Shown: piece after piece, positions 34,101-56,794 of the stretch | Numbering within the stretch: position 1 is the stretch's first letter | Layout: each line of letters begins with the position of its first letter | Assembly (NCBI GenBank): GCA_963664215.1 | Contig: OY761015.1 | Strand: one strand, 5' to 3' | Length of the DNA stretch: 64,000 bases | Origin: Candidatus Poribacteria bacterium | GTDB taxonomy: Bacteria; Poribacteria; WGA-4E; WGA-3G | Notes under the pieces: model-generated | Database searches by the model: none | What the model was told of the DNA's origin: nothing | Seen by the model: only the letters and a program-made list of their open reading frames with translations | Position numbers and translations under genes: made by a program

Positions 34101-35273
34101 GGCACTGATTATACGGATGATTACCGTGTGACACTTCAGCGGGGAAAAAATGTCTTGTTGGTCGCACTTCTCAGCGATGGTCAGGGCTTTTTTGGGTTTG
34201 AACCAGAGACAGAATATACAGTGTCAAACTACGGTGTTAAATATACCTTTTCCAAGCCAACGATCCATGTCGGCGATACGTTTACCCTTGATATTAGCGC
34301 AGAAAACGTGCCCAATTTAGCGGGATGGCAGTTTGATATCGCATTCGACACTGCAATGCTCAAGGCAACTGAGGTAAACGAAGGTGGATTTTTGAAAACA
34401 GGAGGTGCATCGACCTTCTTTCAAAGAGGAACGATTAATAACGCCGCTGGGAGAATCAGAGGTCTCAGTTCAGCGAGTCTCAGCGGGGAGGGTGTCACCG
34501 GTACGGGTGCGTTACTGTCGGTAACCTTCTCAGCAAAGGTAGCCGGACAGACGCAATTGGTATTGCATAACTTCCAGTTTGGTTCCAGCACAGGCGAGGC
34601 TCTCCCCGCAGAACCTCATAAAGTTGTCATTGTTGTGGAGGAGCGGCTCACTACCGGAGATATAAACCGAGATGGACAGGTGAGTATCTTGGATATAATT
34701 ATAGTCGCCAAACATTTAGGAGAAACGGCACCCGCCAACTCGGACGTGGACGTAAACAGTGATGGAGTCGTTAGCATCCTGGATCTCATCCTTGTGGCAC
34801 AACAGATGGGTAAGTCAGCTGCCGCCGCTCCCTCTGCTATTGCTGCGATGAATAACGGGGAACTAAACCCTGTGATGATACAGTCATGGATCGAACAGGC
34901 ACAAGTTGAAGACGACGGCTCCATTGCCTTCCGAGAGGGTATCGCTTTCCTGCAAAGTCTTTTAGCAATGTTGATTCCAGAAAAGACAGCACTGCTTCCG
35001 AACTATCCGAACCCGTTCAACCCAGAAACGTGGATACCGTATCACTTAGCGAATCCAAGTGAGGTGACACTAACAATCTATTCTGTGACGGGTGAAATCG
35101 TGCGAACCTTGACGTTAGGGCATCAACCAGCGGGGATGTATCGGACGCGAAGTCGTGCGGCGTATTGGGATGGCAAAAATGCTTTCGGTGAACGCGTAGC
35201 GAGTGGTCTCTATTTCTACACGCTCACAGCGGGTGATTTCATTGGAACGCGAAGACTGTTAATTATGAAATAG
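31161..35273 (+). CDS. Secreted cytochrome c/LRR/cohesin/dockerin/FlgD-type protein, paralog 2
   Basis: Same architecture; start MKNFIK at 31161 matches paralogs. Confidence 0.9.
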   Translation: MKNFIKISLIFTVIFGYQTADAQQNLAQQAYAIFEQSCLNCHGEHGAFTEEIIIDHTALIETGAVVPGKPIESELYKRLFAEDEAKRMPLGQPKLPVGAILTIGNWIQAGAPNWDDTVEADGTFITPKKMLESIEKHVNSLSPFDRIFARYFTMTHLYNAGETTEALHAYQRALSKLVNSLSWGRNVINPRPIDPKETIFYIDLRDYEWEIGTNRWTLIEAEYPYEIEFNTPTQTALREKLTNLRQTMECEVPFVHVDWFIATASLPPLYHNILGLPETDRELETRLEVNVVENIRNAAGKRVWRAGFNNSGVSNHNRVVERHLSRYGAYWKSYDFAGSVESQNIFTHPLSFTHDGGEIIFNLPNGLQAYYLADAGGRRLNEAPIKIVRNLAASDPTVRNGLSCIGCHTEGMKDFEDQVRGVVQKNPNPPYNKDRALQLYTDKATMDALVAEDTARYRQALETAGGVFGGIEPVQRFHEAFQRPLDVSHAAASVGLETVDFLQKVRENTSLKNLGLGVLTGVNGSVKRDTWTSNFSEIVATLGSPESSGIKPVVPQTERIPGTTVDIPDPNLRTAVAEALGKAPKDTITVEEMATLERLHANGKDIKDLRGLEFATNLETLEIRDNLVSDLSPVAGLTQLSRLSIEGNKVSDISPLTELKNLGSLGIYNNEISDISPLSELTNLRGLSMYKNPVSDLSPLTNLKNLTWIRLRVEPPGNLSPIAELINLEAFFYWGSGEPVPDLSPLTKLPKLAKIDLGGGGKVDVSPLSGLTTVKELWLPDCGISNLSFLEKLTTLERANLGRNNISDISALSALPNLKWLDLRENQISDFSPLDGVREQIKLIWYNNPGFSGGGPKIEGPWLWAVLADVDVTNHRWSLLQRDLLSEVTGGKVTEAEIAARGAVEGQSVGSSVWTSYKLPSTGRMEDMLKPPVPGGAIYGSVLLFSPREQATTLYVGSPFELQVWLNGTLIHQHTRHTRRGTDYTDDYRVTLQRGKNVLLVALLSDGQGFFGFEPETEYTVSNYGVKYTFSKPTIHVGDTFTLDISAENVPNLAGWQFDIAFDTAMLKATEVNEGGFLKTGGASTFFQRGTINNAAGRIRGLSSASLSGEGVTGTGALLSVTFSAKVAGQTQLVLHNFQFGSSTGEALPAEPHKVVIVVEERLTTGDINRDGQVSILDIIIVAKHLGETAPANSDVDVNSDGVVSILDLILVAQQMGKSAAAAPSAIAAMNNGELNPVMIQSWIEQAQVEDDGSIAFREGIAFLQSLLAMLIPEKTALLPNYPNPFNPETWIPYHLANPSEVTLTIYSVTGEIVRTLTLGHQPAGMYRTRSRAAYWDGKNAFGERVASGLYFYTLTAGDFIGTRRLLIMK

Positions 35274-35371
35274 TATCATATGACCCTAGGATAGCTCGGA
35301 TGCTGATGTTTATTAGCTTCCCAGCGATCGCTGATGAGTGGAATGATGTGCTTGAAGGCACATTTGCCTCA

Positions 35372-35400
35372 AGTATAGCAATACGAATAGGGGGTGTCAA
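35372..35400 (-). promoter_or_regulatory. Outward-facing sigma70 promoter in element copy 1
   Basis: Minus strand TTGACA-17 nt-TATACT with extended -10 TG. Confidence 0.75.
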
Positions 35401-35408
35401 CCCTATTT

Positions 35409-36266
35409 TCAAGTCAACTGCTCCTGTTTTGCTAAGTTTGCATCGATGGTTTGGAGTTGATGCTGTGGAATCAGGTCAAGATATTGGGTGATAACGCGCT
35501 TAGAAAGTCGTGTAATCTGCGAGATTTGGTCAATATCGGCAGTCGCCGCACGAACGACTTTCACCGACTCATAATCCCGAATGTATCGATCGACAGCCTC
35601 CTTGGAGTGCTTCATCTTGGCGGCGATAGTCGGGGTGAGATAGCCTTGAAGATAGAGGGTGATGATCTCTTTCTTGTGGGTAATCGCCCCGGATAGATCG
35701 TGGATATTGCCTCGAGTGGGTAAGATGTCTCCTGTGGTTCTCTGCCATTCATTGACATAGTCATTGACGACCTGATCACAGACGTTGAGTAAGACCGCTA
35801 AGTCAAGATGGGTCAATAAGGCGCCTTGGTCATAAGCCTGATGACACCAACGAACCAAGCGATTGATTCTCAGTTGCCGGGAAGTGAACCCGTCGCGAAA
35901 GGATTCGACATCCTCTGCGGCGACATAGGTCAGGATGATGGGTTTCATACGGGTCTTGATGATGGCTTTGCCTCTTTCGGGGTATTCATCAACAGGGACT
36001 GCCATCCAGACGAGTTGTCCATAGCGGAGGTATCGCTCCTCGGGCAGTTCATCTGCCATGGCGAGTTTTTCCAGAGGGAGGGTAATGACGAAATACTGCT
36101 CAACGGTCTTGAGAATATCCTCAACAATGGCAGTGGCAGTGACTTCGCCTTTGTCATACCCGTAGTCATTGAGAAAGCGATGGATCAACAACTGTCGTAG
36201 CGATTTATCGTTGATGCGCCTGACTTTCTTCTCATTGATTTGCGTGCGCGTCAAAGGTTTGCTCAT
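35409..36266 (-). CDS. Element ORF B (DUF1670-like), intact
   Basis: AYDQGALLT..DLA.LL, TRGNIHDLSGAITHK, HSKEAVDRY. Confidence 0.8.
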   Translation of the reverse strand: MSKPLTRTQINEKKVRRINDKSLRQLLIHRFLNDYGYDKGEVTATAIVEDILKTVEQYFVITLPLEKLAMADELPEERYLRYGQLVWMAVPVDEYPERGKAIIKTRMKPIILTYVAAEDVESFRDGFTSRQLRINRLVRWCHQAYDQGALLTHLDLAVLLNVCDQVVNDYVNEWQRTTGDILPTRGNIHDLSGAITHKKEIITLYLQGYLTPTIAAKMKHSKEAVDRYIRDYESVKVVRAATADIDQISQITRLSKRVITQYLDLIPQHQLQTIDANLAKQEQLT

Positions 36267-37077
36267 CGCAGATCCCCCTTTTTTTCATCCACGGGTTCGG
36301 GGTGAAGCAGTTGGGTCATGCGATCGGTGTCTTGGTGTTCTTCATACAACGAGAGATACTCGCGAACGAGGCGATCCGAGAAGTGGGTGATCAGGCGTAT
36401 CTGTGCGCTCGGAAACCCTTGATGATGCAGCGTGGCGACTTGTGTAAAATCTCTGAGGTAGCGGTAGACGGCACGTTCGGAGTGGTTGGTCTTCTGCTGA
36501 ATCTCGGTGAAGGTGTAGTCCTTGAAATACAAATCGAGAATCTGCGTCTTATGAGACAGCCCCGGTCCCATGTCGTGCTTGGCGCCACGCGTCATGACGA
36601 AATACCCGTCGTGTTTCAAGGCTCGGATGTCGCGTTTGACGCTCGCAGGACTCGTGGTTAATAAGATGGCTAAATCTTCATAACTCAGCAAGGCGTCTTG
36701 GTCGTAAGCTTCTTGGGTCAACCGCAGGATCCGATGTCGCCTGAGACCTGCCAGTCCATAAGTGGCTAAGACTTCGAGGTCGACTTGCGTGTCATTGAGC
36801 GTCAGCCGACAGGAGACTTTCTTGGCTAAGGCGATGTGTTTCCCGGTTCCGGTTCTTCGGCAGCGACGGCCTCGTAGCAGATTTGCCCGGATGTGAGTTT
36901 GACATCAGCGTGTTGGGCAAAGTAGGTAGAAATCTGTTGATAGTAGGCTTCGGCGACGATAGGCATAAGATTGAAGTCTGCTGAAATCTTCTGAATAATC
37001 GCGGCTCTAGCATTCTTGGATTCGAGTCGGTTGATACCGTAAGCGGTATCGTTTTGGCGTGTCATAGTGACCTCCAT
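36263..37077 (-). pseudogene. Element ORF A (DUF1670-like), frameshifted near 36845
   Basis: Split into ORFs 36826-37122 and 36263-36721; 2 nt longer than copy 2 at this point. Confidence 0.75.
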
Positions 37078-37234
37078 GAAGGGAGTCTGGGTGATGTAAA
37101 TACATCTACCTGTTAGGTTCACTCATACTCTTAGTATAACTCATGGGGTCATATGATACAAACTATAAATAAGGTCGTACATCAAAAGATATTGCGAGCA
37201 CAACTCGCTCTTTCAAGAAGGAAAAAAGAGATAC

Positions 37235-40200
37235 ATGAAGAACTTCATCAAAATTAGCCTTATATTCACGGTTATCTTCGGATATCAAACCGCGGATGCC
37301 CAGCAGAACCTCGCACAGCAGGCGTATGCGATCTTTGAGCAAAGTTGCCTCAACTGCCACGGTGAGCATGGGGCGTTCACTGAAGAAATCATTATTGAAC
37401 ACACGGCACTCATCGAGACCGGGGCAGTCGTTCCGGGAAAACCGATTGAATCCGAACTCTATAAGCGACTCCTCACAGACGATGACACCAAACGGATGCC
37501 GCTGGGTCAACCCCGACTTCCACCGGCAGCGATCCTGACGATTGGCAACTGGATTCAAGCAGGCGCACCGGATTGGCAGACACGAGAACGAGACACCGGC
37601 TTTATTACACCCAAGGAGATGCTTGAGAGTATTGAGAAGCACGTCAACTCACTCTCTCCGTTTGACCGCACCTTCGCACGTTATTTCACACTCACCCATC
37701 TCTATAACGCTGGTGAGACGACGGAGGCACTGCATGCCTATCAACGCGCACTCTCGAAACTCGTGAACAGTCTCTCTTGGGGACGCGAGGTCATCAAACC
37801 GCAAGCGATTGATCCGGAAGAGACGATCTTCTATATTGATCTGCGCGACTACGAATGGGAGATCGGAACCAATCGATGGACACAGATTGAACAGGTGTAT
37901 CCGTATAGCATTGAGTTCAATGCCCCAAAACAGACAAATCTACGTGAAAAATTAACGACTTTGCGGGAAGTAATGGAGTGCGAAGTGCCGTTCGTTCATG
38001 TCGATTGGTTCATCGCAACAGCCTCTTTACCCCCACTCTACCACGACATTTTAGGGCTCCCTGAGACCGATCGAGAGTTAGAAGATCGGCTTGAGGTAAA
38101 TGTCGTTGAAAATCTTCGCAACGCCGCGGGAAAGCGCGTCTGGCGTGCAGGTTTCAGCGATTCGGGTGTGTCAAATCACAACCGCGTTGTTGAACGCCAC
38201 ATCTCTCGGTATGGGGCGTATTGGAAAAGCTACGACTTTGCGGGGAGTGTAGAGTCGCAGAATATCTTTACGCATCCACTCTCTTTCACGCACGATGGCG
38301 GTGAAATCATCTTCAACCTTCCCAACGGCTTGCAAGCGTACTATCTCGCGGATGCCGGCGGCAGACGGCTTGACGCGGCTCCGATACAGATTGTTCGCAA
38401 CCTCGCAGCGAGTGATCCGACCGTCCGTAACGGTCTCTCCTGTATCGGTTGCCATACAGAAGGGATGAAAGATTTTGAAGATCAGGTGCGTGGCGTTGCT
38501 GAGAAAAACCCGAACCCGCCATTTGACAAGAACCGGGTGTTGCAACTCTATACAGACACAGCGACGATGGAGGCACTCTTGGTGGAGGATACGGATCGCT
38601 ACAAACAAGCTCTTGAAGCGACCGGCGATGTGTTTGGTGGGATTGAACCCGTCCTGCGATTCCACGAGGCGTTTCAGAGACCTGTTGATGCGGCGTATGC
38701 CGCTGCCGTCGTTGGCTTGGAGACCGAGGTGTTCCTCCAAAAGATGCGTGTTTCGGCGAATTTGAAAGGTTTAGGGGTGTTAGTCTTGGAAAATGGCACG
38801 ATGAAAAGGGATACGTGGACATCGAAGTTTAGTGAAATCGTGTTTGCACTGGATTTCCCGGAGGCGGCTATTTCGGTTGACCCGCAGACGGAACGTATCC
38901 CTGGGGCATCTGTCTATATCCCCGACCCGAATTTGCGTGCGGTCATTGAAGAGAATCTCGGAAAAACACCAAATGCCCCAATTACCGTGGAAGAGATGGC
39001 GACTTTGGAGCGGATTTTTCCTGAAGACAAAGGCATCAGTGATTTGACGGGGCTTGAGTTTGCAACAAATTTGGAATGGTTAAAAATTGAGAGTAACCAA
39101 ATATCTGACCTATCGCCGCTGGCGGGATTAACAAAACTGGATCTTTTGGATATCAGTGCCAATGAAATCAGTGACTTATCGCCGCTGACGGGGTTAACAA
39201 ATCTTAGACACATAAAGGTGAGTCATAACAATATTTCGGATCTCTCGCCTCTGGCGGGATTGCCGAACTTGAAGCGGTTTGATTCTTGGGGCAATCCTGT
39301 TTCTAATCTGTTGCCACTCGTAGAACTCGAGGTCATAGATATTTGTGGTGGGGAGCCTGATATATCTACCTTGGAAGGCGCGAAAAATTTGAAAGAACTG
39401 TATCTGCTGGGAGGCGGGATATCGGATGTCTCACCTGTGGCGAAGTTGACAGGGTTAACGCGCTTAGGTGTTGCCGGTAATCCCCTATCGGATATATCGC
39501 CTTTGGCTACGTTAACCGGCTTGAAGTGGTTGGAGCTTTCAGAAAACAAAATATCGGATATATCGCCGTTGGTAAAGTTAACTAACCTGAAATGGTTGCA
39601 TATTGGCGGAAATATGATATCCGACTTTTCACCTTTGGATGGATTCAGCGAGGATGTAACGATCATTAATCACACCAATCCAGGTTTCCCGAAAGGCGGT
39701 CCCAAAATAGAGGGTCCTTGGTTATGGGTGTTGGTACCAGAGGCGGATATTAGAAGTGCTGTTGCGGGGAAGCTGGAGCACCCTAATGATGATCTTCTCG
39801 CGAATTTAGATGTTCTCGCAGAAGCGAGTGGTGGCAAGGTAACAGAACTGAAGGTTTCAACCCATGGTGCAACTGAGGGGAATCCTGTTGGGAATGACGT
39901 CTGGTATTCCGGCACAATATCATCTACAGGGCGGAATAACATTGAGACGGTGTTAACGCCGGAAGTGTTAGCAGGCCCTTTTGTGCCCGGTGTTATTTAT
40001 GGATGTGTCGTCCTGTATTCACCGCGACAACAAGCGGTAACGCTGTTTGCTGGGAATGACGGTGGCGGTAAAGCGTGGCTCAACGGTACTTTGGTTCATG
40101 AGAAACTTCAAGGGGCACGTGGGGTGGATTACCAACATTTCGTTCCTGTTACGCTCAAAGAGGGCGTGAATGTCTTATTGGTTGCAACAAGAACCGGGGG

Positions 40201-41296
40201 TAACGGTTTTTGGGGGTTCAACCCTGAGGCGGAGTATACCGTGTTAAACCCGCGTCTCGGATACGTATTTTCCCAATCTATCATCGATGCCGGCGATACC
40301 TTCACGCTTGAAATTAGGGCAGAGGATATCTACAATTTAGCAGGATGGCAATTCGATATGACTTATGACGCCGCTCTGCTTGAAGCCGTTGAAGTCAACG
40401 AAGGCGATTTCCTGAAGACAGGGGACGGAGCGACCTTCTTCCAGAGAGGGACGATTGAGAATCGGTCGGGTAAGATTAAAGGGCTGAGTTCCGCACGACT
40501 CAGCGAAGACGGGGTTAGCGGCACTGGTACGTTGTTGTCAGTAACATTCACAGCGAAAACAGCTGGGCAAACGCGATTGAGACTCGATAACTTTCAACTC
40601 GCTGCTATCACCGGGAAGCCCATCGATGCAGGACCGCATGCGGTCGTCATTACTGTAAAGGGAGAACAGACGACCGGGGATGTAAATCGGGATGGTCAGG
40701 TAAGCATTCTGGATATGGTGCTTGTGGCTCGCCACCTTGGAAAAACCGTTCCCCCTAACTCGGATGTTGACCTAAATGGCGACGGAATTGTGAACATCTT
40801 GGATCTCATTCTTGTTTCCCAGAATATGGGCGGATCAAACGGCTTGGCTGCCCCGTCAATGCTATCTGTGGACAGTATGGAAGGATTGGATCCTGCGATA
40901 ATACAGGCATGGATAGCGCAGGCACAACTTGAAGATGACGGCTCTATCGTCTTCCAACAGGGCATCGCGAAACTTCAGGAACTTCTGCGATCGTTGATCC
41001 CGAAAGAGACGGTGTTGCTTGCGAACTATCCGAATCCGTTCAATCCAGAAACGTGGATACCGTATCAACTCTCGGAATCTGCGGAGGTCACCTTGCGGAT
41101 CTATGCTGTGAATGGTATCTTGGTTCGGACGTTGGCGTTGGGACAAATGCCCGCTGGCATTTATCAAAGCCGGAGCCGTGCGGCGTATTGGGATGGTAAA
41201 AATGCCGTAGGTGAACGCGTAGCGAGTGGTCTCTATTTCTACACACTCACAGCCGGTAATTTCACGGCAACGCGGAAGATGCTAATACGGAAATAG
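37235..41296 (+). CDS. Secreted cytochrome c/LRR/cohesin/dockerin/FlgD-type protein, paralog 3
   Basis: Same architecture; ends RKMLIRK. Confidence 0.9.
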   Translation: MKNFIKISLIFTVIFGYQTADAQQNLAQQAYAIFEQSCLNCHGEHGAFTEEIIIEHTALIETGAVVPGKPIESELYKRLLTDDDTKRMPLGQPRLPPAAILTIGNWIQAGAPDWQTRERDTGFITPKEMLESIEKHVNSLSPFDRTFARYFTLTHLYNAGETTEALHAYQRALSKLVNSLSWGREVIKPQAIDPEETIFYIDLRDYEWEIGTNRWTQIEQVYPYSIEFNAPKQTNLREKLTTLREVMECEVPFVHVDWFIATASLPPLYHDILGLPETDRELEDRLEVNVVENLRNAAGKRVWRAGFSDSGVSNHNRVVERHISRYGAYWKSYDFAGSVESQNIFTHPLSFTHDGGEIIFNLPNGLQAYYLADAGGRRLDAAPIQIVRNLAASDPTVRNGLSCIGCHTEGMKDFEDQVRGVAEKNPNPPFDKNRVLQLYTDTATMEALLVEDTDRYKQALEATGDVFGGIEPVLRFHEAFQRPVDAAYAAAVVGLETEVFLQKMRVSANLKGLGVLVLENGTMKRDTWTSKFSEIVFALDFPEAAISVDPQTERIPGASVYIPDPNLRAVIEENLGKTPNAPITVEEMATLERIFPEDKGISDLTGLEFATNLEWLKIESNQISDLSPLAGLTKLDLLDISANEISDLSPLTGLTNLRHIKVSHNNISDLSPLAGLPNLKRFDSWGNPVSNLLPLVELEVIDICGGEPDISTLEGAKNLKELYLLGGGISDVSPVAKLTGLTRLGVAGNPLSDISPLATLTGLKWLELSENKISDISPLVKLTNLKWLHIGGNMISDFSPLDGFSEDVTIINHTNPGFPKGGPKIEGPWLWVLVPEADIRSAVAGKLEHPNDDLLANLDVLAEASGGKVTELKVSTHGATEGNPVGNDVWYSGTISSTGRNNIETVLTPEVLAGPFVPGVIYGCVVLYSPRQQAVTLFAGNDGGGKAWLNGTLVHEKLQGARGVDYQHFVPVTLKEGVNVLLVATRTGGNGFWGFNPEAEYTVLNPRLGYVFSQSIIDAGDTFTLEIRAEDIYNLAGWQFDMTYDAALLEAVEVNEGDFLKTGDGATFFQRGTIENRSGKIKGLSSARLSEDGVSGTGTLLSVTFTAKTAGQTRLRLDNFQLAAITGKPIDAGPHAVVITVKGEQTTGDVNRDGQVSILDMVLVARHLGKTVPPNSDVDLNGDGIVNILDLILVSQNMGGSNGLAAPSMLSVDSMEGLDPAIIQAWIAQAQLEDDGSIVFQQGIAKLQELLRSLIPKETVLLANYPNPFNPETWIPYQLSESAEVTLRIYAVNGILVRTLALGQMPAGIYQSRSRAAYWDGKNAVGERVASGLYFYTLTAGNFTATRKMLIRK

Positions 41297-41426: not shown

Positions 41427-41434
41427 CCCTATTT

Positions 41435-49500: not shown

Positions 49501-50646
49501 GGAACAAATGTATTATTGGTTGCCGTCCACAACTCCGGTGGGGAATTTAATGGCTATTTTGGGTTTGAACCCGGCACAGAATATACGGTGGTATCCCCCG
49601 GGACTGGTTTCGCATTGTCGGCGGATACCACACGTGTTCGCGTCGGGGACACTTTTACCGTCCACGTCAACGCTGAAAAGGTTGCGGATTTAGCAGGATG
49701 GCAGTTTGATCTCACATTTGATTCTGATGTGCTTGAAGCGGTTGAAGTCAACGAGGGGAGTTTTCTGAAAAGAGGCGGTGGAACGACTTTCTTTCAGAAA
49801 GGCGCAGTTGATAACGCCATAGGTAAAATCACGGGGGTCAGTTCGGCACTAATCTCCAAAAACGGGGTCACCGGTGCCGGTAACCTCTTATCAGTGGTGT
49901 TCTCTGCAAAGGCAGAAGGGAACAGCCAAATGGCATTGCGCAACTTCCAACTCGGTTCTAATACGGGTGATATTATTCCTGCTGGCATGCGTGATCTTAC
50001 CATCACAGTGGGATCCCAACCGCTTTGGGATGTGAATGCGGATGGACAGGTCAGTATTTTGGATCTGATTCTTGTGGCACAGCACATGGGAGCCGCTGCG
50101 TCTGCTAACGCTAAAGTTGACGTAAACCGCGACGGAGTCGTCAGCATCTTAGACTTAATTCTTGTTGCACAGCACATGGGTGAATCAACGGGTCCAGCGT
50201 CGCCTTCGATTCTTGCTATGGATAGTATAGCCGGGTTGGATCCTGCGCTGATACAGGCCTGGATAGAGCGTGCGCGAGTTGAAGATGACGGTTCTCTCGC
50301 CTTCCGAGAGGGTATCGCTTACCTTCAGAGTCTTTTAGCCTTGCTAATTCCAGAGGAGACGGCGTTGCTGCCTAACTATCCGAATCCATTCAATCCGGAG
50401 ACGTGGATACCGTATCAGGTGTCAGAGCCTGCAGAAGTCACGTTGCGTATCTATTCTGTAAATGGGGTATTGGTTCGGACGTTGGCGTTGGGACAAACGC
50501 CTGCGGGTATCTATCAGAGCCGGAGTCGTGCGGCGTATTGGGATGGCAGAAATGACGTAGGTGAGTCCGTAGCGAGTGGAATCTATTTCTACACGTTCAC
50601 AGCGGGTGATTTCACAGCAACCCGCAAAATGTTGATACGGAAGTAA
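46573..50646 (+). CDS. Secreted cytochrome c/LRR/cohesin/dockerin/FlgD-type protein, paralog 4 (no element inserted)
   Basis: Same architecture; ends CGG AAG TAA. Confidence 0.9.
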   Translation: MTMKLKKKYIFPIVLALIILVPKSTDAQENLAQQTYAIFEQNCLNCHGEHGAFTENIIIEHTALIETGAVVPGKPIESELYKRLLIDDETKRMPLGQPKLPPAAILTIGNWIQAGAPDWQMPEQDTDFITPTEMLETIEKHVNSLAPFDRAFTRYFTMTHLYNAGESAEALHAYQRALSKLVNSLSWGREVIKPQPIDLQETIFYIDLRDYEWEIGVNRWTLVEQVYPYRIEFDAPTQTGLREKLTGLREQMECEVPFVHVDWFLATASLPPLYHDILDLPETDRELETRLEVNVVENIRNAAGRRVWRAGFNNSGVSSHNRVVERHISRYGAYWKSYDFAGSVESQNIFTHPLSFTHDGGENIFNLPNGLQAYYLADAGGNRLDAAPIKIVRNPAASDPTVRNGLSCIGCHTEGMKAFEDQVRGVVEGNANPPFNKDRALRLYVEKAEMDAFLEEDTARYRQALEKTGDVFGGIEPVQRFYEAFQRPLDVPHAAAAVGLETVDLLQKVRENASLKNLGLGVLTGASGSVKRDTWTSNFSEIVTVLSFPDSNIVKPVVPRTERIPGESVHIPDANLRAAIAETLGKTPGTAITAEDMATLMYLDTHEMDIQSLEGLQFATNLEELGLHDSPISDLSPLSGLVTLKEIRLSGKSFSDLSPLAGLINLEGVGFWKTSVADLSPLSGLTKLRWLEFGNSRVSDLSPLAGLTSLKRLEIYAGKDLDLLPLKELTNLVKLKANSSGVLDVSPLSGLINLESLDLEAGRISDISPLASLKNLKELKLQRNRISDVSPLAGLHNLEKLQLHWNKISDFSPLDGLRENTKISWFGNPGFPQGGPKIEGPWLWVLVPGTGFWDGVDLLSQASDGAVTELGIATRGATEETPVGENVWTSHKIAPAGEDNIGTMLTAMGMKENDDTKNVIYGSLTLYSPREQQTQLFAGSYIVHKVWLNGEFVHENLNWWVWAREYQDYAPVTLKRGTNVLLVAVHNSGGEFNGYFGFEPGTEYTVVSPGTGFALSADTTRVRVGDTFTVHVNAEKVADLAGWQFDLTFDSDVLEAVEVNEGSFLKRGGGTTFFQKGAVDNAIGKITGVSSALISKNGVTGAGNLLSVVFSAKAEGNSQMALRNFQLGSNTGDIIPAGMRDLTITVGSQPLWDVNADGQVSILDLILVAQHMGAAASANAKVDVNRDGVVSILDLILVAQHMGESTGPASPSILAMDSIAGLDPALIQAWIERARVEDDGSLAFREGIAYLQSLLALLIPEETALLPNYPNPFNPETWIPYQVSEPAEVTLRIYSVNGVLVRTLALGQTPAGIYQSRSRAAYWDGRNDVGESVASGIYFYTFTAGDFTATRKMLIRK

Positions 50647-50725: not shown

Positions 50726-53700
50726 GTGAACGATCAGAAAATTTTCATTGCCTTTATTTGCTTATTGATGCTTCTCTTGGGTTATCAAAACGTTGATGCC
50801 CAAGGAAATCTCGCGCAGCAAGCGTATGCGATTTTTGAACAAAGTTGTCTGAACTGCCATGGAGAACACGGGGCATTTACTGAAAATATCATCATTGAAC
50901 ACGCGGCGCTCATCGAAACGGGGGCGGTTGTCCCGGGGAAGCCTATTGAATCCGAACTCTATAAGCGGCTCCTCATAGACGATGAAACCAAACGAATGCC
51001 ACTGGGTCAACCGCGACTGCCTCCCGCCGCAATTCTGACCATCGGCAACTGGATTCAAGCGGGTGCACCGGATTGGACGGACACCTCCGAAGCGGATGGT
51101 CCCTTCATCACTCCGACGAAAATGCTTGAAACGATTGAGAAACACGTCAACGCATTGGCATCCTTCGACCGCGCCTTCGCCCGCTATTTTACGATGACGC
51201 ATCTCTATAACGCTGGTGAGAGTGCGGAGGCACTCCACGCCTATCGACGGGCACTCTCGAAACTCGTGAATAGTCTCTCTTGGGGGCGCGAGGTCATCAA
51301 ACCGCAACCCATTGATCTCCAAGAAACAATCTTCTATATCGATCTCCGGGACTACGAATGGGAGATCGGAACTAACCGATGGACCCAGATTGAGCAGGTA
51401 TATCCCTACAAGATTGGGTTTGAGGCTCCAACACAGACGCATCTGCGTGAAAAACTGCAAACTTTACGCCAAGAAATGAACTGTGAAGTGCCGTTTGTTC
51501 ATGTGGATTGGTTTCTTGCGACTGCCTCCTTACCACCTCTCTACCACGACATTCTGGATCTGCCAAAAACCGACCGGGAGTTAGAGACACGCCTTGAGGT
51601 GAATGTCGTCGAAAATATTCGCAATGCCGCGGGCAGACGCGTCTGGCGTGCAGGGTTCAACGATTCCGGTGTTTCAAACCATAACCGTGTTGTCGAACGG
51701 CACACCTCTCGGTATGGGGCGTACTGGAAAAGTTACGACTTTGCTGGCAGTGTGGGGACGCAGAATATCTTTACGCATCCGTTGTCTTTCACACATGATG
51801 GCGGTGAGATTATCTTCAATTTACCCAATGGATTGCAGGCGTACTATTTGGTGGATGCTGGTGGCAACCGACTTGATGCGGCACCGATAAAAATTGTTTC
51901 AAATCCCGCTGCGAGTGATCCAACTGTCCGCAATGGACTCTCCTGCATCGGATGTCACACGGAGGGGATGAAGGTGTTTGAAGATGAGGTGCGGGGTGTT
52001 GTTGAACAGAATGCGAATCCCCCGTTCAATAAAGCGCGTGCGTTGCGGCTCTATACGGAGCAAGCGACGATGGAAACACTTGTAAATGAAGATACGGATC
52101 GTTATAGACGGGCACTTGAAGCGGCAGGCGATGTCTTCGGGGGCATTGAACCGGTTCAGCGATTCCACGAGGCGTTCCAAGGTCCCATAGATGCGGCACA
52201 TGCCGCAGCAGCGGTAGGTTTGGAAACAGCGGACTTTCTGGGAAAAATTCGCGAGAATGCAAGTCTGAGAAACTTAGGTTTAGGGGTGTTGACGGGTAAG
52301 AGCGGCAGCGTGAAGAGGGATACGTGGACATCGAATTTCAGTGGAGTCGTTACGACGCTGGGTTCTCCTGACAGCAGGGCAATTAAGCCGATTGTTCCCC
52401 AGACGGAACGTATTCCAGGGGCTTCTGTTTATATTCCCGACGCGAACCTTCGCGAGGTAATTGAAGATGCACTTGACAAGACACCGGGTGATGTAATAAC
52501 AGCGGAAGACATGAAGACCTTGGTGGACCTTAGGGGAGTGGGGCGAGGGATTCGTGATTTGACAGGACTGGAAACCGCAACAGATCTGGAGGAGTTGTAT
52601 CTTCAGAACAACCCGATCTCCGACATATCACCGCTTGCGGGCTTAGTTAAACTCAAGGAAATAAATCTGAGGAATAGTTCTCTTTCCGATTTATCTCCGC
52701 TCTCGGAACTGATACTGCTGAAAGAGGTGCGGTTTTCGGGCGAGTCGATAGTCGATCTGTCGCCCCTCGCAGGTTTAACTAACTTAGAGGGTGTAGGGGC
52801 TTGGAGCACCTCCATATCAGATGCTTCGCCGCTCTCAGGATTAACAAAACTCAGGTGGTTAGAGTTACAAGGATCCCCAATATCAGATTTCTCACCATTC
52901 TCAGGACTCACAAATTTGAGAAGATTGGAAATGTATGCCGCCAAGACATCTGATCTTTCACCTTTAAAAGGATTGACGAGTTTGAAAATTCTGTCAATTG
53001 GTAACAGCCAAATATCAGACGTTTTCCCACTCGCAGGACTGATTAATTTGGAAGGACTCGGACTGTTCGCGAATCGGCATATATCAGACATCTCGCCGCT
53101 TGCCTCTTTGAAGAACCTCAAAGTGTTAGACCTAACTACCAACCAGATATCGGATGTATCACCGCTTGCAGGTTTGCGAAACTTGGAAGAGGTGCACCTT
53201 CAGCGGAACAACATAACAGATATCTCGCCTTTGGATGGGTTACATGAGAATATACAACTCGCTTGGTACAGCAACCCGGGTTTCCCTCAGGGCGGTCCGA
53301 AAATAAAGGGACCTTGGTTATGGATGTTTGTACCAGGCGTCGGTTTTCATGAGAAAATGGATTATCTTTCACATGCAAGTGAGGGTACTGTAACAGAATC
53401 GGAGGTTGCTACCTATGGAGCAATAGAGGGAAGTCTAGTCGGAGAACACGTGTGGACTTCACACAAAATTGCCTCCGCCTCTGCGGATAGACCTGACATC
53501 AACGTAACGCTCAGTGATATTGGTATATCGAAAGATCATAGAAGAGATGATGTCGTCTACGGTTCCCTGATCTTGAATTCACCGCGTGAACAGAAGACAA
53601 CGATGTTTGCTGGAAGTAATCATAACCACAAGGTCTGGCTCAATGGGGAGTTCGTTCACGAAAACCTGATTGGCTGGGCAGCAGATTATCAAGATTACTT

Positions 53701-54865
53701 TCCAGTCACGCTGAAGCAAGGGATAAATATATTATGCGTCGCGGTTGAGTTCAATGGTAATGAATGGGGTGCCCATTTTGGGTTTGCCCCTGACACACAA
53801 TATACAGTCGTATTCCCAGGGACCGGCTTCGCATTTTCGGCGGATACCACACGTATTCGCGTCGGTGATACGGTCACACTCCGTATCGATGCGGAGAAAG
53901 TCACGGATTTAGCGGGCTGGCAGTTCGATCTCACATTTAATCCTGATGTACTTGAAGCGGTTGAAGTCAACGAAGGCGGTTTTCTGAAGAAAGGTGATGG
54001 AAACACGTTCTTTCAGCGCGGAACAATTGATAACACTGGGGGTAAAATTGTGGGATTAAGTTCGGCGCTGATCTCCAAAAACGGGGTCACCGGTACCGGT
54101 AACCTCTTGTCAGTGGTGTTCTCTGCGAAGGCAGAAGGGAACAGCCAGGTGGCATTACGCAACTTCCAACTCGGTTCTAATACGGGTGATGTGATTCCTG
54201 CTGGCATGCGCGATCTTACCATCACGGTTGGATCTCAACCGCTTTGGGATGTGAATGTGGATGGACAGGTCAGTATTTTGGATCTGATTCTTGTGGCACA
54301 GCACATGGGATCCGTCGCATCTGCCACCTCTAAAGTTGACGTAAACCGCGACGGAGTCGTCAGTATCTTGGACTTAATTCTCGTGGCGCAGCACATGGGT
54401 GAATCAACGGGTCCAGCGTCGCCTTCGATGCTTGCCATGGATAGCATAGACGGGTTGGATCCTGCGATGATACAAGCATGGATAGCGCGTGCGCACGTTG
54501 AAGATGATGGCTCTGTCGCCTTCCGAGAGGGTATCGCTTACCTTCAGAGTCTTTTAGTCTTGCTGACTCCAGAAGAGACAGCACTGCTTCCAAACTATCC
54601 GAATCCATTCAACCCAGAGACGTGGATACCGTATCATTTAGCGAAACCCAGTAATGTGCGGATTACCATCTATGACGCACGCGGTGCTTTGGTACGCCAA
54701 TTGGATCTCGGGCATCAACGTGAAGGCTACTACACGAGTCGGAGTCGTGCGGCGTATTGGGATGGCAGAAACGCCGTCGGCGAACGCGTTGCCAGTGGTG
54801 TCTATTTCTACCAATTGCAGGCGGATCATCTGTCGCTCCTGCGCAAGATGCTCATTTTGAAATAG
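50726..54865 (+). CDS. Secreted cytochrome c/LRR/cohesin/dockerin/FlgD-type protein, paralog 5
   Basis: Same architecture; ends RKMLILK. Confidence 0.9.
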   Translation: MNDQKIFIAFICLLMLLLGYQNVDAQGNLAQQAYAIFEQSCLNCHGEHGAFTENIIIEHAALIETGAVVPGKPIESELYKRLLIDDETKRMPLGQPRLPPAAILTIGNWIQAGAPDWTDTSEADGPFITPTKMLETIEKHVNALASFDRAFARYFTMTHLYNAGESAEALHAYRRALSKLVNSLSWGREVIKPQPIDLQETIFYIDLRDYEWEIGTNRWTQIEQVYPYKIGFEAPTQTHLREKLQTLRQEMNCEVPFVHVDWFLATASLPPLYHDILDLPKTDRELETRLEVNVVENIRNAAGRRVWRAGFNDSGVSNHNRVVERHTSRYGAYWKSYDFAGSVGTQNIFTHPLSFTHDGGEIIFNLPNGLQAYYLVDAGGNRLDAAPIKIVSNPAASDPTVRNGLSCIGCHTEGMKVFEDEVRGVVEQNANPPFNKARALRLYTEQATMETLVNEDTDRYRRALEAAGDVFGGIEPVQRFHEAFQGPIDAAHAAAAVGLETADFLGKIRENASLRNLGLGVLTGKSGSVKRDTWTSNFSGVVTTLGSPDSRAIKPIVPQTERIPGASVYIPDANLREVIEDALDKTPGDVITAEDMKTLVDLRGVGRGIRDLTGLETATDLEELYLQNNPISDISPLAGLVKLKEINLRNSSLSDLSPLSELILLKEVRFSGESIVDLSPLAGLTNLEGVGAWSTSISDASPLSGLTKLRWLELQGSPISDFSPFSGLTNLRRLEMYAAKTSDLSPLKGLTSLKILSIGNSQISDVFPLAGLINLEGLGLFANRHISDISPLASLKNLKVLDLTTNQISDVSPLAGLRNLEEVHLQRNNITDISPLDGLHENIQLAWYSNPGFPQGGPKIKGPWLWMFVPGVGFHEKMDYLSHASEGTVTESEVATYGAIEGSLVGEHVWTSHKIASASADRPDINVTLSDIGISKDHRRDDVVYGSLILNSPREQKTTMFAGSNHNHKVWLNGEFVHENLIGWAADYQDYFPVTLKQGINILCVAVEFNGNEWGAHFGFAPDTQYTVVFPGTGFAFSADTTRIRVGDTVTLRIDAEKVTDLAGWQFDLTFNPDVLEAVEVNEGGFLKKGDGNTFFQRGTIDNTGGKIVGLSSALISKNGVTGTGNLLSVVFSAKAEGNSQVALRNFQLGSNTGDVIPAGMRDLTITVGSQPLWDVNVDGQVSILDLILVAQHMGSVASATSKVDVNRDGVVSILDLILVAQHMGESTGPASPSMLAMDSIDGLDPAMIQAWIARAHVEDDGSVAFREGIAYLQSLLVLLTPEETALLPNYPNPFNPETWIPYHLAKPSNVRITIYDARGALVRQLDLGHQREGYYTSRSRAAYWDGRNAVGERVASGVYFYQLQADHLSLLRKMLILK

Positions 54866-54967
54866 TCTCATATGACCCTAGGAGTGCTGGGAGGCTGATG
54901 TCCATTGGAAACCTCCCAGCGATCACTGATGAGTGGAAATGATGTGCTTGAAGGCACATTTGCTTGA

Positions 54968-54996
54968 AGTATAACAATACGGGTAAGGGGTGTCAA
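54968..54996 (-). promoter_or_regulatory. Outward-facing sigma70 promoter in element copy 3
   Basis: Minus strand TTGACA-17 nt-TATACT; boxes conserved while the spacer differs from copies 1 and 2. Confidence 0.78.
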
Positions 54997-55004
54997 CCCT
55001 ATTT

Positions 55005-55862
55005 TCAACAGATCTGCTCCTTTTTTACTAAGTTTTCATCCATGGTTTGGAGTTGATCCTCTGGAATGAGGTCGAGATATTGAGTAATAACGCGTTTAGA
55101 AAGTCGTGTAATCTGTGAGATTTCGTCAATATCTGCGGTAGCTCTGCGAACGACTTTGACGGACTCATAATCCCGAATGTATCGATCAACCGCCTCCTTG
55201 GAGTGCTTCATCTTGGCAGCAATAGTCGGAGTAAGATATCCTTGAAGATAGAGGGTGATGATCTCTTTCTTGTGGGTAATCGCCCCCGATAAGTCATGAA
55301 TATTGCCGCGCGTGGGTAAGATTTCTCCAGTGGTTTTCTGCCACTCATTGACATAATCACAGACGACCTGATCACAGACGTTGAGCAAGACGGCCAAGTC
55401 AAGTTGTGTCAATAAGGCGCCTTGATCATAAGCTTGATGACACCAGCGAACCATGCGTTTCATCCGGAGTTGTCTGGAAGTAAACCCGTCGCGAAACGAT
55501 TCGACATCTTCTGCGGCGACATAGGTGAGAATGATGGGTTTCATACGGGTTTTGATGATCGCTTTACCTTTTTCAGGGTATTCATCAATCGGGACTGCCA
55601 TCCAGACGAGCTGTCCATAGCGGAGGTATCGCTCTTCGGGAAGTTCGTCGCCTTTGGCGAGTTTCTCCAGAGGCAGGGCAATGACGAAATACTGCTCAAC
55701 GGTCTTGAGGATATCATCAACAATAGCCGTCGCTGTGACTTCGCCTTTGTCATACCCGTAGTCATTGAGAAAGCGGTGGATCAGCAACTGTCGTAGCGAT
55801 TTATCGTTGATGCGTCTGACTTTCTTCTCGTTGACTTGCGTGCGCGTTGAGGGTTTACTCAT
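55005..55862 (-). CDS. Element ORF B (DUF1670-like)
   Basis: Homolog of 35409-36266; start MSKP at 55862. Confidence 0.82.
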   Translation of the reverse strand: MSKPSTRTQVNEKKVRRINDKSLRQLLIHRFLNDYGYDKGEVTATAIVDDILKTVEQYFVIALPLEKLAKGDELPEERYLRYGQLVWMAVPIDEYPEKGKAIIKTRMKPIILTYVAAEDVESFRDGFTSRQLRMKRMVRWCHQAYDQGALLTQLDLAVLLNVCDQVVCDYVNEWQKTTGEILPTRGNIHDLSGAITHKKEIITLYLQGYLTPTIAAKMKHSKEAVDRYIRDYESVKVVRRATADIDEISQITRLSKRVITQYLDLIPEDQLQTMDENLVKKEQIC

Positions 55863-56670
55863 CGGAGATCCCCTTTTTTTCATTCATGGGTTCGGGGTGA
55901 AGCAGCTGGGTCATGCGATCGGTGTGTTGGTATTGCTTATACAGCGAGAGATATTCGCGAATCAACCGGTCCGAGAAGCGAGTGATCAGGCGTATCTGTC
56001 CCTTGGGAAAGTCTTGATGATGCAACGTAGCAACTTGTGTGAAATCTCTCAAGTACCGCCAGACGGCGCGTTCGGAGTGGTTGGTCTTTTGCTCAATCTC
56101 GGTGAAGGTGTAGTCCTTGAAATACAAATCGAGAATCTGCGTCTTGTGAGATAGACCGGGTCCCATGTCGTGTTTCGTCCCGCGTGTCATCACGAAATAC
56201 CCGTCCTGCTTCAACGCTCGGATGTCGCGTTTGACGCTGGCAGGACTCGTGGTTAATAAGATGGCTAAATCTTCATAACTCAGCAAGGCGTCTTGGTCAT
56301 AAGCCTCTTTGGTCAATCGCAGGATCCGATGGCGTCTGAGACCGGGTAGACCATAATCAGCTAAGACTTCGAAGTCCTCTGTGACATCATTGAGCGTCAG
56401 ACAGCAGGAAACTTTCCTCGCAAGAGCGATGTGTTTGCCTGCGGGTTCCTCAGCAGCGACGGCCTCGTAGCAGATCTGTCCTGAGGAGAGTTGAATGTCG
56501 GCATGTTCCTGAAAATAGCCAGCAATCTGTTTATAGTAGGCTTCGGCCATGATCGGCATCAAATTGAAGTCTGCTGAAATCTTCTGAATAATCGCCGATC
56601 TGGCATTCTTAGATTCGAGACGTTTGATGCCATAGACCGCATCCTTTTTGCGTGTCATAAGGACCTCCGT
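55855..56670 (-). CDS. Element ORF A (DUF1670-like)
   Basis: Homolog of 42290-43102; start uncertain (MTRKK at 56658 or upstream). Confidence 0.8.
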   Translation of the reverse strand, partial: TEVLMTRKKDAVYGIKRLESKNARSAIIQKISADFNLMPIMAEAYYKQIAGYFQEHADIQLSSGQICYEAVAAEEPAGKHIALARKVSCCLTLNDVTEDFEVLADYGLPGLRRHRILRLTKEAYDQDALLSYEDLAILLTTSPASVKRDIRALKQDGYFVMTRGTKHDMGPGLSHKTQILDLYFKDYTFTEIEQKTNHSERAVWRYLRDFTQVATLHHQDFPKGQIRLITRFSDRLIREYLSLYKQYQHTDRMTQLLHPEPMNEKKGISDE

Positions 56671-56794
56671 GAAATCCGTCTGGGTGATGCAAATACATCT
56701 ACCTGTTAGCATAACTCATAGTTAGCATAACTATCAGTATAACTCATGGGGTCATATGAGACAAACTATAAGTAGATAAGAAAGGAACTACAAC

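What the first reader, a model, noticed from the sequence alone, without database searches (positions are those of the whole stretch)
35268..56771. Candidate new mobile element family: two paralogous DUF1670-like genes, no transposase, three copies
Seen: a ~1.9 kb unit at 35268-37168, 41291-43193 and 54860-56771 with sharp shared boundaries and three unrelated right flanks. It carries only two overlapping minus-strand ORFs (~270 and ~285 aa) that are paralogs of each other (AYDQxALL..DLA.LL; TRG..HD.....[ST]HK; HS..A..RY..D). I see no DDE, HUH, serine-recombinase or DEDD motif. The DUF1670 (PF07900) assignment is from memory of the motif and is unverified. Inference: the pair itself is the mobilisation machinery of an uncharacterised IS-like element.
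Basis: partly seen in the sequence, partly recalled or inferred. Interest (0 to 1): 0.93.

Follow-up and report, generated by a model that had tools for sequence, protein, structure and literature searches.

The report
Stop-codon-targeting insertion sequence without known transposase
A 1.9 kb jumping DNA element in a sponge-associated bacterium carries only two related DNA-binding genes of unknown function, always lands exactly at the stop codon of one class of secreted-protein genes without damaging them, and has no recognisable transposase.

Summary
The 1.9 kb unit is present in 12 full copies in this 5.69 Mb Candidatus Poribacteria genome, including sets of two and three 100% identical dispersed copies. 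It is found in 40 of 176 Poribacteria genomes. It has imperfect terminal inverted repeats, ATAG(TTTG)TATCA[T/A]ATGACC. An orthologous site is filled in two genomes and empty in two others.

Both genes are DUF1670 (PF07900, E 1e-59 to 1e-63). They are about 30% identical paralogs with dN/dS of 0.09-0.18.

All 12 copies here, and 59 of 76 elsewhere, sit in one orientation just before the Lys-stop (AAR-TAR) of a gene ending in a T9SS-type sorting domain. The element supplies its own AAATAG, so the target protein is unchanged. A sub-lineage instead targets the loop of a REP-like palindrome.

No catalytic domain was found by Pfam, NCBIfam, PDB sequence search or Foldseek. The AlphaFold model shows only winged-helix and HTH modules.

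That it is a mobile element is near certain. That the DUF1670 pair is itself the recombinase is plausible but unproven.

The parts
54862..56769 (.). Copy 3, the intact element. The core runs ATAG...CTAT, with AA on both sides at 54860-54861 and 56770-56771.
   Evidence: It is 100% identical to a second copy at G000:C2:164302.
55855..56658 (-). Copy 3 ORF A. DUF1670, 267 aa counted from MTRKKD. The longest open frame starts at 56712.
   Evidence: Pfam PF07900 E 2.4e-59. Homologs are typically 266 aa. AF2 model pLDDT 78.9.
55005..55862 (-). Copy 3 ORF B. DUF1670 paralog, 285 aa. The longest frame starts at 55883.
   Evidence: Pfam PF07900 E 1.3e-63. 30-32% identical to ORF A. Homologs are mostly 285-301 aa.
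54862..54878 (+). Left terminal inverted repeat of copy 3, ATAGTCTCATATGACCC. Together with the preceding AA it reads AAA-TAG, the Lys-stop of the target gene.
   Evidence: The left hexamer is AAATAG in 76 of 76 related loci and 12 of 12 own copies.
56749..56769 (+). Right terminal inverted repeat of copy 3, GGGTCATATGAGACAAACTAT.
54968..54996 (-). Outward-facing sigma-70-like promoter at the left end, TTGACA-17-TATACT with a TG extension. It reads out through the left repeat.
   Evidence: 11 of 12 consensus matches. Conserved across divergent variants.
54886..54920 (-). Subterminal hairpin, GCTGGGAGG...CCTCCCAGC, lying in the transcript predicted from the outward promoter.
   Evidence: The stem is kept while the loop varies. 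RNAalifold gave no consensus structure.
56736..56764 (-). Promoter-like site TTGTCT-17-TATACT overlapping the right repeat, upstream of ORF A.
   Evidence: 9 of 12 consensus matches; a consensus match only
41293..43191 (.). Copy 2. ORF A is 42290-43102. ORF B is 41435-42196 and is N-terminally short.
35270..37166 (.). Copy 1. ORF B (35409-36266) is intact. ORF A is broken into 36263-36721 and 36826-37122.
50726..54865 (+). Target gene of copy 3. Domains: PSCyt1, LRR, cohesin, dockerin and a FlgD_ig/Por_Secre_tail C-terminal domain. Its last codon and stop are supplied by the element.
37235..41296 (+). Target gene of copy 2, a paralog.
31053..35273 (+). Target gene of copy 1, a paralog.
50641..50646 (+). 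Paralogous empty site. The fourth paralog (46573-50646) ends AAG-TAA and is followed directly by the next gene.
27586..27625 (+). Solo left-end relic: AAATAG plus the left repeat, then degenerate sequence. It follows the stop of gene 23375-27589.

Best explanation
This is an insertion sequence of an undescribed family.

Shown:
- A discrete 1.9-2.0 kb unit, ATAG...CTAT, bounded by imperfect inverted repeats, has recently multiplied in this genome.
- It is patchily distributed among Poribacteria.
- It inserts in one orientation immediately 5' of the Lys-stop hexamer (AAR-TAR) of genes ending in a T9SS-type C-terminal sorting domain.
- AA stands at both junctions. This is either a 2-bp duplication or a 2-bp crossover core.
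- The first bases of the element recreate AAA-TAG, so the target protein is unchanged.
- A sub-lineage uses the loop of a REP-like palindrome instead.
- The only conserved genes are two paralogous DUF1670 proteins under purifying selection. They are built of winged-helix and HTH modules and are fused into one polypeptide in some relatives.

Inferred:
- The two proteins act together, bind the repeats and the target motif, and themselves carry out, or at least direct, strand exchange.
- The conserved outward promoter at the left end drives the genes across joined ends (a circle or tandem junction) after excision, as junction promoters do in copy-out/paste-in IS elements (recalled).

The confidence given is for the whole statement, inferred steps included. 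That the unit is a mobile element I hold at about 0.97.
For: Copy number and recency:
- 12 full-length copies at 84-100% identity, plus short end fragments.
- Identical sets {C2:3148064, 164302} and {C2:5011237, 3764818, 1497137} with unrelated flanks. 7 of 12 copies keep both ORFs whole.
- It is the most numerous repeat family of at least 700 bp in the genome.

Target specificity:
- 12 of 12 own copies follow a FlgD_ig/Por_Secre_tail gene end, out of about 49 such gene ends in the genome.
- In 80 loci from other Poribacteria genomes, both ends were found in 76. The left hexamer was AAATAG in 76 of 76, and 59 of 76 follow a sorting-domain gene.
- For those 59, the hexamer after CTAT was AAGTAA 21, AAATAG 12, AAGTAG 11, AAATAA 7, AAGTGA 6 and other 2. 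That is the original Lys-stop of the target.

Filled and empty sites:
- The orthologous site is empty in G057 and G004, reading ...AAGTAGATAAGAAAGG. It is filled in G000 and G055.
- A paralogous empty site lies in the window at 50641-50646.
- The REP-like palindrome has 40 and 26 empty copies in two genomes. Its commonest form equals the filled flanks minus the insert.

Distribution: PF07900 occurs in 40 of 176 genomes. It is confined to three families and patchy within genera (g1 21/64, g13 8/40).

Genes:
- PF07900 E 1e-59 to 1e-63.
- 81 of 88 elements keep both frames of at least 200 aa. Antisense frames are not conserved.
- dN/dS is 0.09-0.18 in 16 comparisons.
- All 12 'longer' homologs are two or three DUF1670 units in one chain (5 of the 12 scanned with Pfam here, the rest judged from the precomputed domain lists).

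No known transposase:
- NCBIfam gave 0 hits. Pfam gave only HTH families besides PF07900. The best PDB profile hit was E 0.29. Foldseek gave 0 hits at E <= 0.001.
- As a control, Pfam named the Tn5/IS4, DDE_1, DDE_3, rve, TnpB and IS5-type proteins of the other repeat families.
- The repeat core occurs nowhere else in the genome in an end-like context.

Outward promoter: conserved in nearly all variants.
Against: - No catalytic fold or motif was found. The AF2 model (pLDDT 78.9) is helices plus a small beta-hairpin, and its best structural neighbours are MntR, ArsR and SelB winged helices at E >= 0.067.
- The residues conserved between the paralogs lie largely in HTH-like stretches.
- No circle or tandem junction was seen. 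The junction pattern gave 5 hits in 176 genomes, and none was a true junction.
- No raw reads covering the element were available, since run X24 held none.
- The 2-bp AA cannot be assigned either to a duplication or to the element.
- RNAalifold found no consensus structure for the left-end transcript.
- A distant high-GC lineage with fused DUF1670 genes showed no clear repeats in the 2 loci obtained. It is therefore unproven that DUF1670 genes are mobile outside Poribacteria.
Confidence: 0.55

Rival explanations
1. The element is mobile but not autonomous in its chemistry. The DUF1670 pair only binds DNA, providing end synapsis and target choice, and recruits a recombinase encoded elsewhere. 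This would resemble elements that exploit host XerC/D (recalled) or MITE-like elements served in trans.
For: Only winged-helix and HTH modules were detected. No catalytic domain is fused to DUF1670 in any of the 12 longer homologs. AA at both junctions fits a 2-bp crossover like that of serine-type recombination (inference).
Against: No other element in the genome shares the repeat core. The IS630-like element has unrelated ends. The element thrives in three families of Poribacteria with patchy distribution, so any partner would have to be a conserved host enzyme. No such partner was identified, but no proteome-wide co-occurrence test was possible.
Confidence: 0.3
2. Target choice or strand exchange is guided by the roughly 100-137 nt RNA made from the conserved outward promoter at the left end, acting as a bridge- or guide-RNA-like mechanism. 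DUF1670 would be the RNA- and DNA-binding partner.
For: The promoter is strongly conserved and the downstream hairpins are kept. In CTD-targeting variants the loop of the second hairpin resembles the target motif GATGNTNAT (read by eye). The element has a 2-bp core and targets REP-like sequences, as recalled for the IS110 family.
Against: No exact complementarity of 8 nt or more to the flanks was found in the 9 variants tested. The 6-7-mers seen fell at inconsistent places. The REP-targeting variants show no matching loop change. RNAalifold gave no consensus structure. No strand-specific RNA data were available.
Confidence: 0.07
3. The unit is mainly a regulatory cassette. The two transcription-factor-like proteins and the antisense promoter would control the adjacent secreted-protein gene. 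Its association with those genes would be functional rather than parasitic, with mobility a secondary matter.
For: It is always convergent with, and non-disruptive to, a sorting-domain gene. The outward promoter would transcribe antisense into that gene. Both proteins resemble regulators.
Against: 17 of 76 copies are not next to such genes, and 11 of them lie in REP-like palindromes. About two thirds of such gene ends in this genome are unoccupied. Copy number varies from 0 to at least 7 pairs between species of one genus. Decayed copies are common, with 5 of 12 carrying a broken or shortened ORF.
Confidence: 0.1
4. The unit is not mobile. The copies arose by segmental duplication of gene-plus-unit blocks and were homogenised by gene conversion.
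For: In the window the three copies follow paralogous genes in a tandem gene family.
Against: Identity jumps from about 77% to 99-100% exactly at the boundary. The right flanks are unrelated. Identical copies lie megabases apart, and a further copy lies on the second contig. There are inverted repeats at the ends, filled and empty orthologous sites, and insertions into REP-like palindromes.
Confidence: 0.02

Closest known systems
IS110/IS1111 family insertion sequences (features recalled, not tested against a reference)
   Same: Site- and orientation-specific insertion. A 2-nt core at both junctions with no longer duplication. A sub-lineage that targets REP-like palindromes. A conserved non-coding end with a promoter and hairpins.
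   Different: There is no DEDD/RuvC-like or Tnp serine domain. This element has clear 12-17 bp inverted repeats. No guide-target complementarity was found.
IS630 / Tc1-mariner transposons (features recalled)
   Same: Short inverted repeats and a 2-bp flanking repeat. The DUF1670 C-terminal HTH scores weakly against HTH_29 and HTH_23, the type found in the N-terminal DNA-binding part of these transposases.
   Different: There is no DDE_3 catalytic domain. The flanking dinucleotide is AA, not TA. The IS630-like element of this same genome has unrelated ends.
Integrative elements that target the 3' end of tRNA or protein genes and restore it (recalled)
   Same: The element carries a copy of the target's last bases (AAATAG for AAR-TAR), so the target gene stays intact after insertion.
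   Different: Those elements use a tyrosine or serine integrase and are usually single-copy and large. This one is 1.9 kb and multi-copy, with inverted repeats and no integrase.
IS elements that insert into REP/BIME palindromes, such as IS1397 and ISKpn1 (recalled)
   Same: The sub-lineage in genus g3 inserts in the loop of a 32-nt palindrome that is repeated 26-40 times per genome.
   Different: Those are IS3-family DDE elements. This one has no DDE domain.
Pfam PF07900 (DUF1670)
   Same: Both proteins are full-length members, at 200-215 bits against a cut-off of 25.
   Different: The family has no assigned function. No paper in the searched library holds 'DUF1670' or 'PF07900'.

Membership tests
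Pfam PF07900 DUF1670 | Score above the gathering cut-off (25 bits) over most of the 220-position model | tested here: met
   Scores were 152.6-214.8 bits for 6 of the 7 ORFs submitted. The seventh, the 98-aa N-terminal fragment of broken copy 1, had no hit.
Insertion sequence (generic) | A discrete unit with conserved ends, present in several copies with unrelated flanks | tested here: met
   12 copies with inverted repeats
Insertion sequence (generic) | Presence/absence polymorphism at orthologous sites | tested here: met
   G000 and G055 are filled. G057 and G004 are empty.
Insertion sequence (generic) | Target-site duplication | tested here: inconclusive
   AA stands at both junctions. It cannot be told from an element-borne AA.
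Insertion sequence (generic) | Encodes its own transposase | not testable with these tools
   Only DUF1670 genes are present, and their catalysis is unknown.
DDE transposase IS families (IS3, IS4, IS5, IS630 and others) | RNase-H-like DDE catalytic domain | tested here: not met
   No Pfam or NCBIfam hit. No Foldseek hit at E <= 0.001. Pfam did find such domains in the other repeat families of this genome.
IS200/IS605 (HUH Y1 transposase) | Y1_Tnp HUH domain, and subterminal hairpins without inverted repeats | tested here: not met
   No Y1_Tnp hit. The element has inverted repeats.
IS110 family | DEDD_Tnp_IS110 plus Transposase_20 domains | tested here: not met
   No hit
Serine recombinase elements (IS607, resolvase/invertase type) | Resolvase catalytic domain | tested here: not met
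   No hit
Tyrosine recombinase elements | Phage_integrase catalytic domain with the R-H-R-Y residues | tested here: not met
   No hit. The 'HS...RY' stretch scores as an HTH.
Anti-phage defence or phage families | Match to PADLOC or PHROGs models | tested here: not met
   PADLOC gave 0 hits. PHROGs gave one weak 'transcriptional regulator' hit at E 2.4e-4.

The most novel reading that the evidence does not exclude
The DUF1670 A/B pair is a new class of DNA recombinase or transposase, unrelated in fold to the DDE, HUH, serine and tyrosine enzymes. It would be built from winged-helix modules and would insert its element at a short DNA motif with single-base precision. Its target preference would be re-settable in evolution, from the stop codon of sorting-domain genes in one lineage to REP-like hairpin loops in another.
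Probability: 0.35. Interest if true: 0.95.

Novelty: new variant of a known kind. Interest (0 to 1): 0.82.

Why it matters
All well-studied bacterial insertion sequences move by one of a handful of enzyme types. Here an evidently active and widespread element carries none of them, only two paralogous proteins of a domain family with no literature.

If the pair is catalytic, it is a new recombinase class with a compact, precise and seemingly re-targetable specificity. If it is not, the element is a rare bacterial case of an IS that brings its own targeting proteins but borrows the chemistry.

Either way, the finding gives DUF1670 its first functional context. It also shows a 'harmless landing' strategy in which the element re-supplies the target gene's last codon and stop. 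Finally, it identifies a source of structural variation next to the surface and secreted LRR/cohesin/dockerin genes of sponge-associated Poribacteria.

Tried and rejected
- RNA-guide idea. I looked for complementarity between the left-end transcript and the flanks in 9 variants. Only 6-7-mers turned up, at inconsistent places. RNAalifold gave no consensus structure on 22 variants. The idea is unsupported but not excluded.
- A-B binding. The complex-prediction job on ORF A and ORF B returned 'no answer' (score 0.15, mark 0.32, controls not run). It is evidence neither way.
- Circle or tandem junction. A 24-letter junction pattern gave 5 hits in 176 Poribacteria genomes. All were right ends followed by an ordinary AAATAG target or by an 18-nt left-end relic (L125).
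- Reads. 24 runs were listed and 4 were laid. The one raw-read DNA run, X24, had no reads on the stretch. The three metatranscriptome runs are assembled contigs. They cover the ORFs at 85-99% likeness but cannot show transcription, strand or ends. Depth at the left non-coding end was about zero, probably because relatives diverge there. Nothing on expression or junctions can be concluded.
- Hidden third gene. Open frames of at least 100 aa on the opposite strand exist in 69 of 88 elements but are absent in the divergent variants. Rejected.
- Programmed frameshift fusing A and B. The relative frame of B differs between variants (coordinates), so I read the overlap as translational coupling.
- Trans-acting partner with the same ends. 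The repeat core occurs only at this element's ends and relics. The IS630-like ends are unrelated.
- Distant lineage. A metagenome scan with the fused protein P0247 gave only 2 loci, with no clear repeats. It led nowhere.
- Plasmids. tblastn of ORF B found no match.
- ESM Atlas. Only HTH-type clusters, scoring 0.80 or less.
- Literature. 'DUF1670' and 'PF07900' each returned 0 papers. 'Poribacteria' with 'insertion sequence' returned 10 papers, none relevant judged from the listed titles and abstract starts. No paper was opened. Supplements were not consulted. ISfinder could not be queried, and NCBIfam served as a proxy.

Full report
**The observation.** A repeat search of window 30000-60000 found three copies of a ~1.9 kb unit. 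Alignment of their edges and a search of the whole genome place the cores at 35270-37166, 41293-43191 and 54862-56769. Whole-unit identities are 92.9% (c1/c2), 86.4% (c1/c3) and 87.0% (c2/c3). Each copy carries two minus-strand reading frames. Six of the seven frames submitted match Pfam PF07900 (DUF1670) at E 1.3e-44 to 1.3e-63. The seventh is a 98-aa fragment of a broken gene. The upstream (A) and downstream (B) proteins are 30-32% identical. Copy 1 has a broken A gene, copy 2 a shortened B gene, and copy 3 is intact.

The left flanks are not unrelated. Each copy starts right at the stop codon of a paralogous 1350-1400 aa gene (31053-35273, 37235-41296, 50726-54865) with PSCyt1, LRR, cohesin, dockerin and FlgD_ig/Por_Secre_tail domains. 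Identity jumps from about 77% in the gene end to 99-100% inside the unit for c1/c2. A fourth paralog (46573-50646) ends AAGTAA with no unit behind it, which makes it a paralogous empty site. A fifth (23375-27589) is followed by a solo relic of the left end at 27586-27625. The unit has terminal inverted repeats. The left end reads ATAG-T(A/C/G)TCATATGACC, and the right end reads GGGTCATATGA(G/T)AC-AAAC-TAT.

**Genome-wide picture.** The window lies in a 5.69 Mb assembly of two contigs. Names attached to homologs and related records identify it as Candidatus Poribacteria. There are 12 full-length copies (84-100% identity to copy 3) and short left-end fragments. Two sets are 100% identical over 1.9 kb at dispersed places: {C2:3148064, C2:164302} and {C2:5011237, C2:3764818, C2:1497137}. 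Seven of the 12 copies have both genes whole. A self-comparison shows this is the most numerous repeat family of at least 700 bp in the genome. The others are ordinary IS elements whose proteins Pfam names at once: Tn5/IS4-type, DDE_Tnp_1, DDE_3, rve, TnpB-type and IS5-type. That serves as a positive control for the negative result on DUF1670. The 10-letter repeat core, allowing one mismatch, occurs in an end-like context only at the 12 copies and 3-4 relics.

**Target.** All 12 copies follow a gene whose last ~90 residues are a T9SS-type sorting domain (YPNPFNPETWIPY...GVYFY...RKM.I.K*). In three copies this is only visible after allowing for a ~740 bp ORF-less group II intron that has entered the left repeat (Rfam RF00029, 65.6 bits). 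An HMM built from these 12 tails finds 56 gene ends at E <= 1e-5, 49 of them at E <= 4.7e-23. Twelve carry the full element, two or three carry relics, and the rest are empty, ending AAGTAA, AAATAA, AAGTAG, AAATAG, AAGTGA or AAATGA.

**Target in other genomes.** A scan of one genome per species found 215 relatives of ORF A, and the best 80 loci were all from Poribacteria MAGs. Both ends were located in 76 of the 80. Two loci were cut by contig ends and two failed the pattern at one end. The six bases before the left repeat are AAATAG in 76 of 76. Of the 76, 59 follow a sorting-domain gene. For those 59 the six bases after CTAT are AAGTAA (21), AAATAG (12), AAGTAG (11), AAATAA (7), AAGTGA (6) or other (2).

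**Reading of the junctions.** The left hexamer is invariant while the right one varies and includes TGA stops. The right hexamer is therefore the target's original Lys-stop, and the element brings its own AAATAG. Equivalently, the unit is ATAG...CTAT with AA on both sides. The target protein is unchanged by insertion.

**Filled and empty alleles.** The right flank of copy 3 has orthologs in other species of the genus. In G057 and G004 the gene end runs straight into that flank, reading ...AAGTAGATAAGAAAGG... In G000 and G055 the element sits between them.

**A second target.** Eleven of the 17 non-sorting-domain copies, from two genomes, lie between GAAACCGAGTTTTGAAG-AA and AAAACTCGGTTTC. That palindrome is a REP-like repeat with 40 copies in G035, 26 in G026 and none in G000. 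Its commonest empty form equals the filled flanks minus the insert. The remaining non-canonical flanks still resemble the gene-end motif at the DNA level (read by eye).

**Distribution.** PF07900 is found in 40 of 176 Poribacteria genomes. It occurs only in three families of one order (f1 29/111, f2 5/11, f3 5/29, others 0/24). It is patchy within genera (g1 21/64, g13 8/40, g5 5/10), and runs from one match to the display limit of 15 per genome. Wherever both were scored, the matches come as adjacent pairs.

**The genes.** Of 88 elements, 81 keep both minus-strand frames of at least 200 aa. Opposite-strand frames are lost in the divergent variants. dN/dS against copy 3 is 0.10-0.18 for A and 0.09-0.13 for B in eight comparisons each. 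Homologs number 798 (A) and 1327 (B) at E <= 0.001 among the candidates scored. Many sit on contigs of about the element's own length. The few that carry names are called 'DUF1670 domain-containing protein', 'hypothetical protein' or 'biotin operon repressor'. A search restricted to longer proteins found 12. Eleven are two DUF1670 units in one chain and one is three units, and none has another kind of domain (five of the 12 were scanned with Pfam here, the rest rest on the precomputed domain lists). This supports the view that A and B work together.

**No recognisable enzyme.** NCBIfam gives no hit. Pfam gives only sub-threshold or near-threshold HTH families besides PF07900. PHROGs gives one weak 'transcriptional regulator' hit, and PADLOC gives none. 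A profile search of PDB sequences gives a best E of 0.29. The ESM Atlas gives only HTH-type clusters scoring 0.80 or less. An AlphaFold2 model of A, from a 51-row alignment (pLDDT 78.9, pTM 0.64), is three N-terminal helices, a beta-hairpin, a long arginine-rich helix, and then three helix-turn-helix-like units. A conserved, poorly modelled loop (TRG..HD.....[ST]HK) lies between the first two units. Foldseek against the PDB gives no match at E <= 0.001. The nearest structures are MntR, ArsR-type and SelB winged helices.

**Non-coding features.** The right repeat overlaps a promoter-like site upstream of gene A (9 of 12 consensus matches). At the left end, just past the stop of gene B and pointing outward, there is a near-consensus promoter (TTGACA-17-TG.TATACT, 11 of 12). 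It is kept in nearly all variants even where surrounding sequence has diverged. The 104-138 nt between it and the element's tip fold into two stem-loops in single-sequence predictions. RNAalifold found no consensus on 22 variants.

**Mechanism.** It is shown that the element makes precise, oriented, site-specific insertions with a 2-nt AA at both junctions. It is also shown to have been active recently and to have re-targeted in one sub-lineage. I infer that A and B bind the repeats and the target motif as a heteromer and carry out or direct strand exchange. I further infer that the outward promoter serves expression across joined ends. I put about 0.35-0.4 on A/B being the catalyst, about 0.3 on a borrowed recombinase and under 0.1 on an RNA guide. 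I put 0.02 on the unit not being mobile at all.

**Comparison with known systems.** The element behaves like an IS and meets the generic tests of conserved ends, multiple copies and filled/empty sites. It fails the defining test of every IS family I could test, because the catalytic domain is absent. In behaviour it most resembles the IS110 family (2-nt core, REP targeting, structured non-coding end) and gene-end-restoring integrative elements. These resemblances are recalled rather than tested. I found no paper holding 'DUF1670' or 'PF07900'.

**Limits.**
- ISfinder could not be queried.
- Only assembled contigs of RNA libraries were available.
- Whether DUF1670 genes outside Poribacteria are mobile is not settled. 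Methanosarcina acetivorans rang as a control, and the one distant lineage sampled gave only two loci.

Noticed in passing
G000:C2:~2384541-2385280 (locus L004, intron 3' end at 1424-1500), and likewise beside C2:2563107 and C2:418548: A ~740 bp ORF-less group II intron (Rfam RF00029, 65.6 bits) sits inside the left inverted repeat of 3 of the 12 element copies. It lies at ATAGTAT^CATATGACC, in the sense of the upstream target gene. Two of those three copies still have both genes intact.
   Followed up: partly
G000:C2:~170256-171825: A related intron copy begins directly after the stop of another sorting-domain gene (AAATAATCC^GTGCGG) that has no DUF1670 element. The intron therefore seems to home to the same kind of gene end.
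   Followed up: no
window 27586-27625: A solo relic of the element's left end follows gene 23375-27589. Solo left ends (3-4 in the genome) were found, but no solo right ends.
   Followed up: partly
window 23375-54865: A tandem family of five ~1350-1400 aa genes (PSCyt1, LRR, cohesin, dockerin, sorting domain) is interleaved with two ECF-sigma/LRR fusion genes at 27739-30477 and 43486-46467.
   Followed up: no
window 56795-58861: A WD40 gene built of 126-nt units that are 60-87% identical to one another. In G057 and G004 its ortholog has about 827 extra bases 34 nt downstream of the empty insertion site.
   Followed up: no
window 63087-63944: An IS5-type DDE transposase gene (DDE_Tnp_1_3) belonging to a 6-copy repeat family of the genome.
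   Followed up: partly
G035 and G026 (e.g. loci L119-L122): A 31-34 nt REP-like palindrome, GAAACCGAGTTTT-loop-AAAACTCGGTTTC, has 40 and 26 copies and often occurs in local clusters. It is absent from G000.
   Followed up: partly
proteins P0241-P0252: Natural single-chain forms with two DUF1670 units (529-559 aa) and one with three units (P0246, 952 aa).
   Followed up: partly
locus L125 (G117:C1:~247726): The right end of a full element abuts an 18-nt relic of another left end. The AAATAG carried by a resident copy can apparently serve as the target for a later insertion.
   Followed up: partly
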